From assembly GCA_963758525.1 (NCBI GenBank), contig CAVWVQ010000003.1, forward strand, positions 3,424,001 through 3,488,000: a DNA stretch of 64,000 bases, read 5' to 3'. Every line of letters begins with the position of its first letter. Position 1 is the first letter of the stretch. Position numbers and translations under genes: made by a program. This stretch comes from an uncultured Phycisphaerales bacterium (GTDB lineage Bacteria; Planctomycetota; Phycisphaerae; Tepidisphaerales; Tepidisphaeraceae). Below, piece by piece: positions 25,875-34,668 of this stretch. The notes below the pieces were generated by a model, which was given only the letters and a program-made list of their open reading frames with translations, was not told where the DNA came from and did no database searches.

Positions 25875-26255
25875 ATGAGTCGCGGCAAATCCAATTCGCG
25901 CGAGCGTGAGATCCGAAAGGCTCGGCGTCTGCTCTCGGATGAGCAACTCTTGTCGCTCCTGCGGGCGATGAGGCGGCCCGGGCAGTCGTCGTTTGCGGTG
26001 GAGCAGATCAATGCCGACCTGAACCAGGGACAGATGCTCGATCAGATCTTTTACACGGGGGAGAGCGACGGCTTCCATCTGAAGATCACGCGGCAGGCCG
26101 CCTCGCGCCTGCAAATCGAATTCTCATGGACATTCCAGCAGACACTCGGAAACTCGACGTCGTTCAGTGAAGGGGCCGGCGGAACGTGGTTCGTGGAAGT
26201 CGACGCATCAGGTGCGGTGCGATTGCTGGACGGCGCGATGATTTGGATGAGTTGA
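25875..26255 (+). CDS. Hypothetical protein (paralog of 26892-27251)
   Basis: Same N-terminus MSRGKSNSREREIRKARRLLSDEQL; shared DQIFYTG.SDGF. Confidence 0.7.
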   Translation: MSRGKSNSREREIRKARRLLSDEQLLSLLRAMRRPGQSSFAVEQINADLNQGQMLDQIFYTGESDGFHLKITRQAASRLQIEFSWTFQQTLGNSTSFSEGAGGTWFVEVDASGAVRLLDGAMIWMS

Positions 26256-26891: not shown

Positions 26892-27251
26892 ATGAGTCGC
26901 GGCAAATCCAATTCGCGCGAGCGTGAGATTCGGAAGGCCCGCCGTCTGCTCTCCGACGAACAACTGGTAGCGATTTTCCGCGCGATCGAGCGGAGCCCGG
27001 AAACGAACATCTTCGCGGTTACGCTCGCGAACGAAGAGCTGAGCCGGGGACAATCACCGGACCAGATCTTCTACACCGGCGCCAGCGACGGCTTCGTCCT
27101 GAGCGTCAAAAGACTTTCCTCGTCACGGGTCGAAATCGACTTCGGCTACGTCCCGGTCCCACTCGCCGGCGATGGGGGCGCCTGGGTCGTGCAACTTGAC
27201 GAAGCCCGAGACGTGCGATCGGTGCAGAATAAAATCTGCTGGACAAGCTGA
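26892..27251 (+). CDS. Hypothetical protein (paralog of 25875-26255)
   Basis: Shared motifs with the paralog; RBS GGAG. Confidence 0.7.
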   Translation: MSRGKSNSREREIRKARRLLSDEQLVAIFRAIERSPETNIFAVTLANEELSRGQSPDQIFYTGASDGFVLSVKRLSSSRVEIDFGYVPVPLAGDGGAWVVQLDEARDVRSVQNKICWTS

Positions 27252-27296
27252 GGCCCTTCGTCACTCGCGGTGTTCCATTTCATGCGCCGGCGCCCC

Positions 27297-27416
27297 AAAG
27301 CCAACGGATTGCCATCCGTTGGGCATTTTCTGCGAGGGAACGAGGGGAGCGATGGGAAAAAACGCGGGATTGCAAATGGGAAATCGGGGAACAGCGGATG
27401 GCAATCCGTTGGCTTT
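27297..27416. repeat. REP doublet AAAGCCAACGGATTGCCATCCGTTGG; third copy at 28703-28728
   Basis: Inverted copies at 27297-27322 and 27391-27416. Confidence 0.8.
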
Positions 27417-27880
27417 ATTGGGGAAACGGACCGGCGCGATCGAATCTCCAGACCCGGGCCCCGCGCTTCGCGTGATCGAGAATGTATCCAAATGCTTCGA
27501 CCTGATGCCCCCGGTCGGCGATCGGCTCAGCGCGCGAGCGCTTCGCCCACAATCCGCCCTTGGCGCTGCGAAGGCCCAACTGACGAACGGAGTGCGACGC
27601 GTGCTTCTTTGCAAGGCCGATCCAGTGTCTGGGTTTGTGATCGGGGAAGCGAGCGAGGACGTGGAGGTGCCGGGAATCCAGCGAGACAATGAGAACTTCA
27701 ATCCCGTTGCGACTCAGGTTTTCCGCGATGGCATCAGCAACGAACTGCCGAAGTTCCGTTGCGATGCGCACCGCGTCACGCTGCATGAGCGCTTTGGAGA
27801 GTTCGTGCAGATTGTGGTACTTGCCCTTGGGCGGCGGATGCTTGTACTCACCGTCCACATGTTCGGGATGGTGCACACTA
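27415..27880 (-). pseudogene. 5'-truncated Y1/HUH (RAYT-like) transposase
   Basis: SLDSRHLHVLARF (HUH), GLAKKHAS, LWAKR, FGYILDH (candidate catalytic Tyr). Confidence 0.7.
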
Positions 27881-27961
27881 CTATCTCCGTCGCTCGTGGC
27901 ATTGAATTCGAAAGGGCACGGCTCGCAAGCGAACCGGCTAAAAGTGCAGACTGCGCTAGTA

Positions 27962-28656
27962 AAGAGATCCGACGTTCGCAAAACTGGATCGGCGGTACGC
28001 GGCCCGGCAACGCCCGGTTCGTCCCGCCGCCGCCGGACGAAGTGGCCGGTGCGATGTCGGCGCTGGAGAAGTGGATTCATGCTACGGACCCGCTGCCACC
28101 GCTGGTGAGGGTGGGCTTGGCCCACGTCCAGTTCGAGACCATTCATCCATTTCTGGACGGCAACGGCCGTATCGGTCGACTGTTGATCGCGCTGCTCGCG
28201 GAGCACTGGGGCCTTCTCAAACTGCCGCTGTTGTACCTCAGCGTAGCGTTCAAACGGCACCGCGAGGAGTATTACCGGCTGCTCGGTGCGGTTCGGACCC
28301 AAGGCGATTGGGAAGGCTGGACGGGCTATTTTCTGGACTGCGTCCGCGAAGCCGCCCAGGACGGCGTGTCGGCGGCGCAGCGACTGTTTTTGCTGATTGG
28401 CAAAGACCGCATTCGGCTGGCGAACCATCCCTCGGCCACCGTTGCGGCCATCCGGCTCTTCGACCAGATGCCCGCCCACCCCATCGTCACCCTGGCAACG
28501 GCGATCAAGCTGCTCAACGTGACGAAGCCGACGGCAGGCAAAGCGATCGACGCACTCAGGCAAGCCCGAATTCTCCGCGAAACCACCGGCAGGAAGCGAG
28601 ACCGTGTGTACGCGTACGATGCCTACCTGAAGGTGCTGACCACCGATACGGGGTGA
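27962..28656 (+). pseudogene. 5'-truncated Fic family protein
   Basis: RRSQNWIGG, HVQFETIHPFLDGNGRIGR, ETTGRKRDRVY; N-terminal region absent. Confidence 0.8.
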
Positions 28657-28843
28657 TATCCTGATTGGAGCAGCAGACAGGCGCGAGTCACTGACGGGAG
28701 GACCAACGGATGGCAATCCGTTGGCTTTCCGAGGGCGGCAAGAGCGGGTCTGGGCTGACGCGACTGCGCTGACGCGATAACTGCGCGGCGGTGCCATTGG
28801 TATGATGGTGGCCGCGCTCGGCTCCGTTTCTTAAAATTTCCGC

Positions 28844-29668
28844 ATGATCTTCGGCCATATCATTTTGGAAGCGCGCCCGAGCGACAGCAATAGCGTCCTC
28901 ACCGCGCTCCTGCCGATCATTGTGGTGACGGCGATTGTCGTCGTGCGGCGCTCGAACCGGCCCAAGCGACGGGCGGCGGCGGCGACGAAGCCGGCGGCGA
29001 CATTTGTTCCCACCACGCACCCGGTGATTATGCCGCGGGCCGGCGGCGGGACGCCGTCGCGGGTTTTGTCGCCGATTGAATCGATCCGTCACCTCCTGGG
29101 GCCGGCGCCGCGGACGTTTGATCCGGGTCTTGGCTCGTATCTCACGGTGTTGCCGCCGAAGTGGCTGGAGAAAAGCCCGGCGGATGAGATGTGGCTCAAT
29201 GTCAAACACCAGGAGCGCGTGCGGCGCGATGGGCAAGTCGTGTGGGCGACGATCGTCCAGGCCAATAACAATCTCTTCAAACTGATCGCGGCCGAATCGG
29301 GCGCATCGGTGATCTACAGCCCCGACCCCTTTTTTGACGGCACGCGCGTCATGCTTCGGTCGATCGCCGGCCAGTGTTTCGCCACGAAGGGAACCGACCC
29401 GGCCGACCCGGAATCCGCCGTCTTTGCACGGATGCTCACCAATGAGATGACGCGTGGCATGCGATTGAAGGTGCCTGGCGCTTTCACCAGCGGCCGGCAG
29501 GTCTTTCACTCGTCGATGCTGATGCCGCGCAAGCACCTGCCCAAAGGCGTTCTCTCGGGGAGTTTCTTCCCTGTGTGGATCGATCCGCAAAATACCGGGG
29601 CGGTGGTCATGGTTCCCGCCGCCTACTGGCCGGCGAGTCTTACCGCCGAGTGGGATAAGCCCGGATGA
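28844..29668 (+). CDS. Hypothetical protein with N-terminal TM anchor
   Basis: 274-aa ORF with typical codon bias; VVWATIVQANNNLF. Confidence 0.7.
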   Translation: MIFGHIILEARPSDSNSVLTALLPIIVVTAIVVVRRSNRPKRRAAAATKPAATFVPTTHPVIMPRAGGGTPSRVLSPIESIRHLLGPAPRTFDPGLGSYLTVLPPKWLEKSPADEMWLNVKHQERVRRDGQVVWATIVQANNNLFKLIAAESGASVIYSPDPFFDGTRVMLRSIAGQCFATKGTDPADPESAVFARMLTNEMTRGMRLKVPGAFTSGRQVFHSSMLMPRKHLPKGVLSGSFFPVWIDPQNTGAVVMVPAAYWPASLTAEWDKPG

Positions 29669-29677
29669 AGACACTGA

Positions 29678-29946
29678 CCCTCACCCCGACCGTCTCCCGG
29701 ACTTTTTCATGGGGGCCCCACGCCCAGAGAGAGTGAAATGGGGTTGCTCTGGCATTGGGTGGCGTGGGTGGCGTCTCTTTTCAGAGCAGAAATGTCCAAG
29801 GCCCAATGGCCAACAAAGCCCCAAGGTCCAAGGCCCAAGGTTGGTTCTCCCACTGGTCATTGCGATTTGGGATTTTGTTGGCCATTGGGCCTTGGACATT
29901 TCTGGGTCTCCCACATCTCTTTTCGGAGCAGTACCGGGAGAGGGGG
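29678..29946. repeat. Nested repeat: a split CCCTCACCCC..CTCCCGG|GTACCGGGAGAGGG element containing a 31-bp perfect inverted repeat
   Basis: IR at 29787-29817 / 29874-29904; near-direct repeat TCTCTTTTC(A/G)GAGCAG at 29774 and 29916. Confidence 0.65.
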
Positions 29947-29994
29947 GGAAAGTGCTTGATCGCCCCTATCAATCCCCACATTCCCCTCGCAATT

Positions 29995-30137
29995 GGGTGT
30001 AACTTTTATTTGTGGCGATTGCAGATTTTGCGATCGTAGGGCGGGATTCATCCCGCCGTTTTCTCAGCCGGCCAACAAATCGGCGGGATGACTCCCGCCC
30101 TACTCGGAGCCGATCGCCACTTTCGAGCGCCACACCC
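29995..30137 (-). mobile_element. 143-bp MITE, copy 1
   Basis: GGGTGT...ACACCC ends; flanks TCGCAATT / TCGCAATC (7/8 TSD); internal GTAG REP doublet. Confidence 0.85.
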
Positions 30138-30163
30138 TCGCAATCGCATTTCCCGCCGTCGCA

Positions 30164-30191
30164 TTGACCCTCGCGCGGTGGCAGCTATGAT
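30164..30191 (+). promoter_or_regulatory. Putative sigma70 promoter for the cimA leader
   Basis: TTGACC-N16-TATGAT. Confidence 0.5.
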
Positions 30192-30198
30192 TGCACCT

Positions 30199-30261
30199 AT
30201 GCATCGGCGGACGATTCGAATTGCCCCGGCCACGATTATGATCGCGATCCATCGCGGGTGA
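30199..30261 (+). CDS. Ile-rich leader peptide MHRRTIRIAPATIMIAIHRG (alternative start 30187)
   Basis: 5 Ile in 20 codons, upstream of a terminator and cimA. Confidence 0.75.
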   Translation: MHRRTIRIAPATIMIAIHRG

Positions 30262-30291
30262 GGGCTATTCGTTGATCGAATACAGTGAGAC

Positions 30292-30322
30292 AGCCCTGCC
30301 CCGCCGGCAGGGCTTCTTTTTT
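30292..30322 (+). terminator. Attenuator terminator upstream of cimA
   Basis: AGCCCTGCC-ccgcc-GGCAGGGCT followed by TCTTTTTT; alternative pairing with AGGGCT at 30261-30266. Confidence 0.85.
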
Positions 30323-30354
30323 AACTTGGTTTTCCAGTTTAATCAGGTGCTTTC

Positions 30355-31997
30355 ATGACCGACCAGCGCCGCATCGAAATCTACGACACGACCCTGCGCG
30401 ACGGGACGCAAGGCGAAGGGTTCAATCTCTCGTTGCAGGACAAGCTCCTGATTGCCAGGAAGCTCGATGAGCTGGGCGTGGATTACATCGAAGGCGGGTT
30501 CCCGCTTTCCAATCCAAAGGACGCGGCGTTTTTTGAGGAGGCGCGGCAAATCCACTTCCGGCACGCGAAGATCGCGGCCTTTGGAATGACGCGCCGGCGG
30601 GGAATCAAAGCCTCGGACGATCCGGGGATGCAGGCGCTGGTGCATGCGCAAACGCCGGTCGTCACGCTGGTCGGCAAGAGCAGCGAGTTTCACGCGACGG
30701 CGGTGCTCTCGGTCAGCCCGGAGGAGAATCTGCAGATGATCGCCGACTCCGTCCGCTTTATCCGCGAGGCGGGTCGGACGGTGGTGTACGATGCCGAGCA
30801 TTTCTTCGATGCGTTCAAGGCCAATCGCGAATATGCGATCAAGACGCTGATGGCAGCTCAGGAGGCGGGCGCATCGGTGCTGGTGCTTTGCGATACCAAT
30901 GGTGGGACGATGCCGGAGCAGGTTGCCGAGGCGGTCGCGGCGGTGAAAGCCGCGGCGTCGGTCATGGTAGGCATTCATACGCATAATGACGCAAGCCTTG
31001 CGGTCGCGAATGGACTGGCGGCCGTGCGGGCGGGCGCGGCGCATGTGCAGGGGACGATCAACGGAGTGGGCGAGCGCTGCGGCAACATGGATCTGCTGCC
31101 GCTGATCGCGAATCTGCAACTCAAGTACAACCTCTCGTGCCTGGCGCCGGGGACGCTGTGCGCATCACCGAGACGAGCCGATTCGTCTATGAGACGGCCA
31201 ATCTGAACATGTGGTCGGGCCAGCCGTACGTGGGGAGCAGCGCGTTTGCCCATAAGGGAGGGATGCACGTGCACGCGGTGCAGAAAAACGCCAGCACGTA
31301 TGAGCACGTTTCGCCGGAGCTGGTGGGAAATACGCGGCGGGTGCTGATCAGCGAATTGTCGGGGGCGAGCAACATCGCCGCCAAGGCGGGCAGGAAGTTT
31401 GACATCGAGTCGGACAAGGCCGCGCTGCGGAAGGTGCTGGAAACGGTGCAGGACCTGGAGAATGCCGGGTATCAGTTCGAAGCAGCCGAGGCCAGCTTCG
31501 AGCTGTTGCTTCGCAAGCAGATCGGCCGGCATCAGCGATTTTTCACGCTGGATCACTACCGGGTAAGCGTTCTGAAACAGGGGGAATCGGATGCGATTTC
31601 CGAAGCGACCGTGAAGTTGCTCGTCAAAGAAACCACGGAGCACCGCGTCGCGGAGGGAGATGGGCCGATCAACGCGCTCGATGGCGCGCTGCGAAAGGCG
31701 CTTCGGCCGCACTACGCGTCGATCGATGAGGTGCATCTGACCGACTACAAAGTGCGGGTGATCAACTCCAAGGACGAGACGGCGGCCAGCGTGCGCGTCA
31801 TCATCGAGTGCCGGCGTCTGCGCCGGGATGGTTCCAAGGAAGCATTCGGAACGATCGGCGTGAGCGAGAATATCATCGACGCGAGCTGGCAGGCGCTGGT
31901 GGATGCCTACGAATATCACCTGATCCATGTGGCGGAGGAATCGGCGCCGCAAGGGACGACGACGCCGGCTGAGGCGCCGGCGATGGCTGTTCGCTAA
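30355..31997 (+). CDS. cimA: Citramalate synthase (frameshift ~31160)
   Basis: YDTTLRDGTQGEG, YDAEHFFD, LCDTNGG, HTHND, GERCGN, AHKGGMH, GVSENIIDASW. Confidence 0.93.
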
Positions 31998-32976: not shown

Positions 32977-33737
32977 ATGAGCCTTTTGGACGACATCACT
33001 CCCGAGCGAATCCCCCGGCACATTGCCGTGATCATGGATGGCAATGGCCGCTGGGCGGTGCAGCGCGGCCTGGAGCGGGTTCGCGGCCATCAACAGGGGG
33101 CGCGGGTCGTGCGGACCATCGTGACGGAGTGTTCACGCATTCGCCGCGAGCGCGGCGGGCCGGATTACCTCACGCTCTACTCATTCAGCCTGGAAAACTG
33201 GAAACGCCCGCCGGGCGAAATCTCGTTTTTGATGCAGATGTACATCGATTATCTGCGGACGGAACGCCCGACGATGATGGAGAACAACATCCGTTTTCGC
33301 CAGATCGGACGACTCGACAATCTTCCCCAACCCGTCCTGGACGAGGTCGAGGCGACACTCGAAGAAACCCGCAAGAACGACGGGCTGACCCTGATGCTTG
33401 CGCTGAATTATGGCAGCCGGGCCGAGATTACCGACGCCGTTCGGGCGATCGCCGAGGAAGTGCGTGACGGCCGGCTTCGGCCCGAGCAGATTCAGGAATC
33501 GACCATCTCCCAGCACCTCTACACTGCCGGCATCCCCGACCCGGATCTTCTGGTGCGCACGGCGGGCGAAATGCGGATCAGCAATTATCTGCTGTGGCAA
33601 ATCAGTTATGCGGAGCTGTTTATCAGCAATGTGCTCTGGCCGGACTTCGGCATCGACAACCTGCACGAAGCGCTGCACGCCTACGCGTCGCGCAACCGGC
33701 GGTTTGTGCGCTGGATCGCACCAATACGCTCCTCTGA
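32977..33737 (+). CDS. uppS: Undecaprenyl diphosphate synthase
   Basis: HIAVIMDGNGRWA, FSLENWKRP, PDPDLLVRTAGEMRISNYLLWQ. Confidence 0.95.
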
Positions 33738-33741
33738 TTTG

Positions 33742-34668
33742 ATGGAACCCGCGCTGAAAAACCGCCTGACGTTTGGTTCGCTGATGCTCGCGGGGCTCTT
33801 TTTCCTGCTCTGGCTTGATGCCGCCGTCGAACGCTGGACCAAGCCCTGGATGATCAACTCGCACAAGGATCACCCGGTGCGCCACGGGCTGGGCGGCGTC
33901 GGGTTGCTGATTGTGCTGATGATTATCCTTCCGCTTGCGGTAACCGAGCTGGCCGCGCTGTTTACTGCTGAGCAGGTGCGTCCGTATCGCATCATCGCCG
34001 CATTCGGGTCCGGAGCCCTGGTGCTCCATGCCTTTCTCACGCAGCTTCCCAAGTTCCAGATCGTTGCGGCTTCCTCGCTGGCGATGATCGTGGTCTCCGT
34101 GATGCTTCTGGCGGCGGGCCGCAGGGCATGGGAACGCCAGACAGACCGCGCCATTCTCCGCATGGCCGGCACTGTGCTCGCGACGCTCTATTTGGGAGGC
34201 CTGGCGTGGTTTCTCATGGCGATCCGCGTCAAGCAATCGTTGTATTTCCACGGCAGCACCATGGTCGTCCTCATGATCCTGCTGGTGGTGAAGTCCACCG
34301 ATATCGGCGCGTACTTTGGCGGTCGAGCACTGGGGCGACGCAAGCTGATCGCCTGGCTCAGCCCCGGCAAGACGTGGGAGGGGCTGATCTGCGGAATGAT
34401 CACCGCCGGATTCGTCGGGATGATCTGCTCGCTGTTCGTACGCGAGGTCTATCTCAGCCCGCACAAGGGATTCATTTTTGGCGTGGTGATCGGCGGAATC
34501 GGACAAGTGGGCGACCTGCTCGAAAGCCTGATGAAGCGCGATGCTGGCATCAAAGACAGCGGGCGGCTCATTCCCGGATTTGGGGGCATTCTGGACGTGA
34601 TTGACAGTCCGCTCTTTGCGGCCCCGTTCGCTTACCTGCTTTTCAGCCTGTTCGCGTTCCGCGCATAA
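33742..34668 (+). CDS. cdsA: Phosphatidate cytidylyltransferase
   Basis: DIGAYFGG, LSPGKTWEG, GDLLESLMKRDAGIKDSG, GGILDVIDS. Confidence 0.93.
   Translation: MEPALKNRLTFGSLMLAGLFFLLWLDAAVERWTKPWMINSHKDHPVRHGLGGVGLLIVLMIILPLAVTELAALFTAEQVRPYRIIAAFGSGALVLHAFLTQLPKFQIVAASSLAMIVVSVMLLAAGRRAWERQTDRAILRMAGTVLATLYLGGLAWFLMAIRVKQSLYFHGSTMVVLMILLVVKSTDIGAYFGGRALGRRKLIAWLSPGKTWEGLICGMITAGFVGMICSLFVREVYLSPHKGFIFGVVIGGIGQVGDLLESLMKRDAGIKDSGRLIPGFGGILDVIDSPLFAAPFAYLLFSLFAFRA

What the first reader, a model, noticed from the sequence alone, without database searches (positions are those of the whole stretch)
30164..30354. Isoleucine-sensing leader-peptide attenuator upstream of cimA
Seen: a promoter-like TTGACC/TATGAT; a 20-codon ORF with 5 Ile, three of them in IMIAI near the end; AGGGCT at the stop codon able to pair with the terminator 5' arm AGCCCT; and a 9-bp GC hairpin with a U-tract. 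Known: CimA starts the threonine-independent Ile pathway. The ATG lies ~7 nt after the -10 box, so the leader may be translated leaderless. I am not aware of such an attenuator being described in Planctomycetes.
Basis: partly seen in the sequence, partly recalled or inferred. Interest (0 to 1): 0.7.

Follow-up and report, generated by a model that had tools for sequence, protein, structure and literature searches.

The report
Isoleucine-sensing attenuator before citramalate synthase
A 20-codon mini-gene with five isoleucine codons, followed by RNA segments predicted to fold into competing hairpins, sits in front of the citramalate synthase gene here and in most close relatives examined, and likely lets the ribosome switch this isoleucine-pathway gene on when isoleucine runs short, a textbook mechanism on a new gene and lineage.

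Summary
Observation confirmed; interpretation strongly supported, by computation only. A promoter-like site, a 20-codon ORF with 5 Ile, an antiterminator arm at its stop codon and a 9-bp terminator precede cimA. The element stands before cimA in 32 of 34 genomes of the family, probably Tepidisphaeraceae. One rule applied to two genes found Ile-rich leaders before cimA (28 of 34) and never before leuA (0 of 30), whose leaders are Leu-rich (30 of 30). Ile codons cluster 5-7 codons before the antiterminator arm and are 71% ATT against 13% in cimA. The ATG lies 6-10 nt behind the -10 box in 29 of 31, so the leader is probably leaderless. Elsewhere in Planctomycetota the leader is Val-rich mostly where valS follows cimA (17 of 20, against 2 of 39). 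No transcript or ribosome data; within-family covariation is weak; this assembly's cimA is split by a 1-nt frameshift, probably an assembly error. A classical ribosome-mediated attenuator with a new target and lineage. Not in Rfam or ten literature searches, but the key 2010 survey could not be read. This scan found the same device earlier in other planctomycete genomes.

The parts
30164..30191 (+). Promoter-like site, -35 TTGACC, 16 nt, -10 TATGAT
   Evidence: a matching site whose first downstream ATG opens the Ile ORF in 25 of 34 family loci
30199..30261 (+). Leader ORF, 20 codons, Ile at codons 6, 8, 13 (ATT) and 15, 17 (ATC); probably translated leaderless
   Evidence: counterparts in 32 of 34 family loci
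30212..30236 (+). Segment 1, predicted 5' side of the protector (1:2) hairpin, inside the ORF
   Evidence: -28.3 kcal/mol but z 0.12 in this copy alone; family: more 1:2 pairs than synonymous variants in 26 of 30
30254..30266 (+). Segment 2, antiterminator 5' arm (GCGGG-TG-AGGGCT) spanning the stop codon
   Evidence: family consensus GGGTAGGGC; 95.1% of cells paired with segment 3
30292..30304 (+). Segment 3, shared arm: pairs with segment 2 (antiterminator) or segment 4 (terminator)
30292..30322 (+). Intrinsic terminator-like hairpin (9 bp) and U-tract
   Evidence: 98.3% of 240 cells paired, 2 pairs with changes on both sides
30355..31997 (+). cimA, citramalate synthase (TIGR00977), split in this assembly by a 1-nt frameshift near 31164
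   Evidence: none of the 52 other matches shows a frame ending at this point (one has a stop elsewhere, one frame is 367 aa)

Best explanation
A 20-codon Ile-rich ORF, a shared-arm hairpin pair and a U-tract lie between a promoter-like site and cimA, and likely form a ribosome-mediated transcription attenuator that lets cimA be transcribed only when charged Ile-tRNA is scarce. Step 1 (inferred): transcription starts at or within about 3 nt of the ATG, so a ribosome loads on a leaderless RNA. Step 2 (predicted): with Ile plentiful the ribosome runs to the stop codon, which lies in segment 2, covers it, and segments 3:4 form the terminator 40 nt before cimA. Step 3 (predicted): with Ile scarce the ribosome waits at the ATT codons, above all codon 13, six codons before segment 2; segment 1 is covered, segment 2 is free and pairs with segment 3, so RNA polymerase reads into cimA. 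Step 4 (inferred): the ATT bias sharpens the pause, since the genome has only GAU-anticodon Ile tRNAs for ATT/ATC and ATT is read by wobble. Step 5 (established knowledge): CimA starts the citramalate route to 2-ketobutyrate; no threonine dehydratase was found in this genome, so this is likely its main entry to Ile.
For: Shown by calls: anatomy. Conservation in 32 of 34 family loci. Reciprocal control with one rule: cimA loci Ile>=3 in 28 of 34, Leu>=3 in 1 of 34; leuA loci Ile>=3 in 0 of 30, Leu>=3 in 30 of 30. Ile is 24.4% of 528 leader residues against 4.7% in long ORFs of this genome. 28, 26 and 15 of 31 loci have Ile at 5, 6 and 7 codons before segment 2, while the stop codon moves (earlier in L002, L003, L026; later in L019, L020), so the Ile-to-RNA distance is what is kept. 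ATT is 91 of 129 leader Ile codons against 95 of 714 in the same cimA genes; swapping ATT for ATC in silico changes the predicted 1:2 energy by only -0.1 kcal/mol on average (30 loci). Across the phylum each stop region pairs better with its own terminator arm than with others' (-15.7 against -12.1 kcal/mol, 33 of 37 better than the median, 0 of 10,000 permutations). Masking up to an Ile codon gives at least 7 antiterminator pairs in 28 of 31 loci. Val content follows valS adjacency. No threonine dehydratase among 5 PALP genes or by TIGR01124.
Against: No expression, start-site, termination or ribosome data. Within-family covariation is weak: 1 antiterminator pair with a change on both sides, matched by 90 of 500 shuffles. 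The 1:2 hairpin of this copy is no more stable than shuffles (z 0.12). Without a ribosome, the nascent RNA favours 2:3 over 1:2 at equilibrium in this copy (6.9 against 0.2 pairs) and most relatives, and the terminator wins in the full leader in only 24 of 31 loci, so the off state depends on folding kinetics that I did not model. This copy has Met at the most conserved Ile position and an Ile only 6 nt before segment 2, where a stall leaves 5.0 pairs. cimA is frameshifted in this assembly. Two family members lack the element (L111, L123). The element also persists in relatives with an ilvA-like gene (18 of 36 have a sub-cut-off match).
Confidence: 0.9

Rival explanations
1. The leader controls translation initiation of cimA (ribosome-site occlusion, as described for leaderless poly-Cys ORFs in mycobacteria) rather than transcription termination.
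For: A small hairpin (30326-30345) lies just before the cimA start in this copy; some relatives have short or interrupted U-tracts.
Against: A hairpin plus U-rich tract was found in 31 of 34 loci; the terminator arm lies anywhere from 36 to 305 nt before the cimA start, and the RNA between is not conserved.
Confidence: 0.04
2. The nascent peptide itself stalls the ribosome in response to free Ile or another metabolite (TnaC-like), and the codons are secondary.
For: Many leaders end in P-x-x-R-G.
Against: The peptides share little besides Ile; L002, L003 and L026 stop before the R-G codons yet keep the same nucleotides, so the motif is an RNA arm; synonymous ATT bias would not be expected from a peptide-level sensor.
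Confidence: 0.03
3. A constitutive or differently controlled leader terminator; the Ile-rich ORF is a by-product of base composition or of RNA pairing.
For: C-rich Thr, Pro and Ala codons in the ORF do look driven by pairing with segment 2; compensatory changes within the family are few.
Against: Amino-acid content matches the downstream gene for cimA (Ile), leuA (Leu) and, in this genome, a DAHP synthase (Phe, Trp, Tyr); frame and start are kept while the peptide diverges.
Confidence: 0.03

Closest known systems
E. coli ilvL / thrL / leuL leader-peptide attenuators (classical four-segment attenuation; mechanism recalled, ilvL sequence read)
   Same: Short ORF with cognate codons, mutually exclusive antiterminator and terminator, U-tract before the first biosynthetic gene; ilvL also uses ATT for 4 of 5 Ile codons.
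   Different: Target is cimA, not ilvGMEDA or thr; input is Ile alone in this family; leader is 15-20 codons and apparently leaderless; no Rfam match.
Leaderless leader peptides of Actinobacteria: Streptomyces lividans ilvL, leuL1, leuL2, trpL1 (PMC8079986, passages)
   Same: Short leader ORF transcribed leaderless, followed by hairpins and a U-rich stretch, before amino-acid genes.
   Different: Other phylum and target genes; there the starts were mapped, here only inferred; 'citramalate' does not occur in that paper's main text.
Mycobacterial leaderless poly-Cys ORFs (10.1101/834739, search listing and start of abstract only)
   Same: Leaderless short ORF sensing an amino acid through cognate codons.
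   Different: Cys, not Ile; recalled as acting on downstream translation, whereas this element has an intrinsic terminator.
T-box riboswitches and Rfam leader families (Leu, Thr, His, Trp leaders; names recalled)
   Same: Also control amino-acid genes by termination or antitermination.
   Different: No family reached its gathering score in this region or in 16 related loci, apart from one tRNA; the 90 nt between the ATG and the terminator leave no room for a T-box.

Membership tests
Classical ribosome-mediated transcription attenuator | Short ORF enriched in codons for the pathway's product | tested here: met
   5 of 20 Ile; 28 of 34 cimA loci Ile>=3 against 0 of 30 leuA loci; Ile-richest of 214 combinations in the genome
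Classical ribosome-mediated transcription attenuator | Intrinsic terminator between ORF and structural gene | tested here: met
   by sequence and folding only
Classical ribosome-mediated transcription attenuator | Antiterminator that shares an arm with the terminator | tested here: met
   conserved pairing, cross-clade matching; few compensatory changes within the family
Classical ribosome-mediated transcription attenuator | Geometry: stall frees segment 2, ribosome at stop covers it | tested here: met
   at least 7 pairs on a stall in 28 of 31 loci; 0.1 or fewer at the stop in 29 of 31 (a consequence of the assumed 10-nt footprint, not independent)
Classical ribosome-mediated transcription attenuator | Protector / pause hairpin 1:2 | tested here: inconclusive
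   predicted here but z 0.12; exceeds synonymous variants in 26 of 30 loci, energy z only -0.5 with genome codon weights
Classical ribosome-mediated transcription attenuator | Leader ORF is translated and read-through depends on the amino acid | not testable with these tools
   no RNA holder listed
Leaderless leader-peptide attenuators (actinobacterial type) | Transcript starts at the leader's start codon | tested here: inconclusive
   gap of 6-10 nt behind the -10 box in 29 of 31, SD-like word in 2 of 31; start not mapped, gaps of 9-10 allow a 2-4 nt leader
Rfam families (T-box, amino-acid leaders, riboswitches) | Covariance-model score at or above gathering | tested here: not met
NCBIfam leader-peptide models | HMM match | tested here: not met
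   0 families at E<=1 for this peptide and one relative; 20-residue queries have little power
CimA citramalate synthase (TIGR00977), the regulated gene | Score above the 450-bit cut-off | tested here: inconclusive
   two frameshifted halves score 356 and 293 bits, best family for both, neither above the cut-off alone; activity not tested

The most novel reading that the evidence does not exclude
Planctomycetota carry an uncatalogued, phylum-wide family of cimA attenuators whose sensing input was re-tuned with operon content: Ile-plus-Val leaders, often longer and with a ribosome-binding site, where valS follows cimA, and compact leaderless Ile-only leaders where cimA stands alone. In Tepidisphaeraceae a matched set of leaderless leaders (Ile before cimA, Leu before leuA, aromatic before DAHP synthase) uses U-ending, wobble-read codons as the sensor, a natural experiment on how attenuator inputs evolve and on codon choice within one tRNA species.
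Probability: 0.55. Interest if true: 0.58.

Novelty: new member of a known kind. Interest (0 to 1): 0.42.

Why it matters
It would give the threonine-independent isoleucine pathway a transcriptional control element and extend amino-acid leader attenuation to Planctomycetota, for which my searches found no described case. It supports the annotation of these TIGR00977 genes as Ile-pathway enzymes, separate from leuA. The Val content that follows valS adjacency, and the ATT and CTT bias for codons read by the same tRNA as their C-ending synonyms, are testable leads on how attenuators are tuned. The mechanism itself is textbook, and this scan has already met the device in other planctomycetes, which limits the surprise.

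Tried and rejected
Rfam: 12 sub-threshold matches in 29600-30500, none near gathering; 16 related loci gave one tRNA only. NCBIfam: no model for the peptide. Sequencing runs: no RNA holder listed; the one DNA run with a small share gave short pieces, none over the leader or across the frameshift. The longer in-frame ATG at 30187 lies inside the -10 box and was rejected as the start. The hairpins at 30040-30099 belong to a dispersed repeat, not to the attenuator. RNAalifold found only the terminator on alignment A1, since it cannot show two exclusive folds. Synonymous-variant test with uniform codons (mean z -1.6) is inflated by lower G+C; with genome codon weights it is -0.5. No comparable leader plus terminator was seen by eye before ilvB, ileS or valS in this genome or picked up by the genome scan. 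Genome-wide promoter-to-ATG distances peak at 5-6 nt but rest on 74 sites: a weak hint only. One search read minus-strand loci unoriented and was redone; part's output was cut and was covered again; one search stopped after its tRNA count and was redone. Segment 2 was mis-assigned for L012 and L030, segment 3 for a few loci (L004, L033, L060), and about 3 of 30 leuA ORFs; all stay in the counts. Literature searches gave no paper on a cimA or planctomycete amino-acid attenuator. Xu 2004, Risso 2008 and Lopatovskaya 2010 are not held; Vitreschak 2004 was not requested.

Full report
Observation. Folding gives three structures: 1:2 (-28.3 kcal/mol, z 0.12), antiterminator 2:3 (-24.3, z -3.4) and terminator 3:4 (-19.6, z -4.3); the full leader folds as 1:2 plus 3:4. 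In a genome-wide scan of 214 short-ORF-plus-terminator combinations it is the only one with more than 3 Ile in its last 16 codons.

The regulated gene. Both halves of 30355-31997 match TIGR00977 best. They are separated by a 1-nt frameshift near 31164. No relative's frame ends at that point, and the essential valS of this assembly is also split over two frames, though ileS and rpoC are intact. An assembly error is the likelier cause (inference); reads could not decide it. The citramalate route yields 2-ketobutyrate for Ile (PMC7476758, passages). The five PALP genes found are cysK, cysM, two thrC and trpB and TIGR01124 found nothing in this genome, which is 90.9% complete; 18 of 36 family relatives have a sub-cut-off ilvA-like match.

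Conservation in the family. cimA was found in 53 of 61 genomes; I read the upstream DNA of all 53. Thirty-four belong to the window's family, probably Tepidisphaeraceae, going by the titles of the closest named records. One rule (ATG/GTG ORF of at least 12 codons ending within 75 nt of a hairpin with U-rich tail) found a terminator in 31 of 34 and Ile>=3 in 28 of 34; three more have two Ile, and L030 has a divergent terminator seen by eye, giving 32 of 34; L111 and L123 lack the element. The same rule on 30 of the 36 leuA matches gave Ile>=3 in 0 and Leu>=3 in 30, against Leu>=3 in 1 of 34 cimA loci. These genomes are kin, so the counts are not independent events. One cimA locus and one leuA locus come from the unpublished genome G004; they enter the counts as one row each and were left out of alignment A1.

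What is kept. In 31 curated leaders Ile is 24.4% of residues and Val 1.5%. Ile stands 5, 6 and 7 codons before segment 2 in 28, 26 and 15 of 31 loci, with a second cluster at 10-11, while the stop codon shifts in five loci. The window's Ile13 is at position 6; position 5 is Met here. On 30 aligned loci the antiterminator pairs in 95.1% of cells (slid controls 34-59%) but has one two-sided change, which 90 of 500 shuffles match; the terminator pairs in 98.3% with two such changes. Better evidence comes from divergent clades: for 37 of 38 hand-picked loci, the stop region pairs with its own terminator arm at -15.7 kcal/mol against -12.1 for others', 0 of 10,000 permutations as good. With a ribosome modelled as a mask ending 10 nt past its codon, a stall gives at least 7 antiterminator pairs in 28 of 31 loci. 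Against the simple picture, 2:3 also beats 1:2 at equilibrium on the untranslated nascent RNA in most loci, so kinetics matter and were not modelled.

Leaderless start. In 25 of 34 loci a promoter-like site has a first ATG 6-10 nt downstream that opens the Ile ORF (no manual choice). With relaxed matching the gap is 6-10 nt in 29 of 31 and an SD-like word appears in 2; where several ATGs were in frame I chose the first behind the -10 box, so that count is partly by construction. Many leuA leaders show the same spacing by eye. Leaderless leader peptides are described in Streptomyces (PMC8079986, passages), so this trait is not new.

Codon choice. ATT makes up 91 of 129 leader Ile codons against 95 of 714 in the same cimA genes and 25.8% in this genome's long ORFs. 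leuA leaders use CTT in 93 of 188 Leu codons against 13.8%. The genome has two tRNA-Ile(GAU) genes and one tRNA-Leu(GAG), so the U-ending codons are read by wobble (established knowledge). Changing ATT to ATC barely alters predicted 1:2 energy. The selective-charging theory explains bias between isoacceptors (PMC1183508, passages); here both Ile codons share one tRNA, so slower decoding is my inference. E. coli ilvL shows the same tilt, 4 of 5.

Wider spread and valS. Of the 19 class relatives outside the family, 8 passed the strict rule. valS directly follows cimA in 11 of these 19 and in 0 of 30 family loci checked. Among hand-picked leaders, Val>=2 in the last 18 codons occurs in 17 of 20 with valS adjacent, 2 of 8 non-adjacent outside the family and 0 of 31 in the family. 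Four of the 11 adjacent genomes show no leader and two lack a clear terminator. No tree was built, so the number of independent changes is unknown.

What is known. No Rfam or NCBIfam match. Ten searches of the open library gave no paper on a cimA leader or a planctomycete amino-acid attenuator. Passages read: PMC2965389 (no 'Planctomyc', 'cimA' or 'citramalate' in the main text), PMC4833913 (planctomycete leader genes only as a distance statistic), PMC2864571, PMC12452182 and PMC3082878 (nothing relevant). Their supplements were not opened and may list such elements. Lopatovskaya 2010, the broadest survey, and the Leptospira and Geobacter cimA papers could not be read, so 'undescribed' holds only for these searches. 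The scan's own index lists 94 findings with these words, among them two in other planctomycetes; these are unchecked notes and not independent support.

Verdict. A real, well-conserved element that works like, and by every feature testable here belongs to, the classical leader-peptide attenuators (confidence 0.9). New member of a known kind: new target gene, new lineage, probable leaderless start, and an input that appears to follow operon content. Interest 0.42.

Noticed in passing
window 31150-31165: cimA is split by a 1-nt frameshift; valS of the same assembly is also split over two frames, so probably assembly errors.
   Followed up: partly
G000:C2 minus strand, about 388260-388370 (L138, L139): Leu-rich, probably leaderless leader with the same hairpin layout before leuA; Leu>=3 in 30 of 30 family loci, CTT-biased.
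   Followed up: partly
G000:C2 minus strand, about 119680-119810 (L174): Short ORF rich in Phe, Trp and Tyr with a terminator before a DAHP synthase (TIGR01361 over cut-off): a third candidate attenuator.
   Followed up: partly
window 29995-30137: 143-bp palindromic dispersed repeat with 195 BLAST hits in the genome, 91 of at least 100 nt, many 99% identical; a copy also lies upstream of valS.
   Followed up: partly
window 29780-29900: A second palindromic repeat with 43 BLAST hits in the genome.
   Followed up: no
window 27415-28797 (-) and 27172-28656 (+): Overlapping long ORFs: a weak REP-associated tyrosine transposase match (E 0.0014) on the minus strand and a Fic domain on the plus strand; perhaps linked to the repeats nearby.
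   Followed up: no
window 32977-34668: One ORF joins uppS and cdsA domains: a real fusion or another assembly frameshift.
   Followed up: no
window 25875-26255 and 26892-27251: Two neighbouring ORFs share an identical 26-residue start and then diverge.
   Followed up: no
L095, L099 upstream of cimA: Records titled Thermodesulfobacteriota and Desulfatiglandales have 38-codon leaders with successive Ile, Val and Leu blocks and a terminator.
   Followed up: no
L105 upstream of cimA: A Terriglobia (Acidobacteriota) record has a Leu/Ile/Val leader and terminator before cimA.
   Followed up: no
L111, L123: The two family members without the leader have a -10-like box about 7 nt before the cimA start itself, suggesting a leaderless cimA mRNA.
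   Followed up: no
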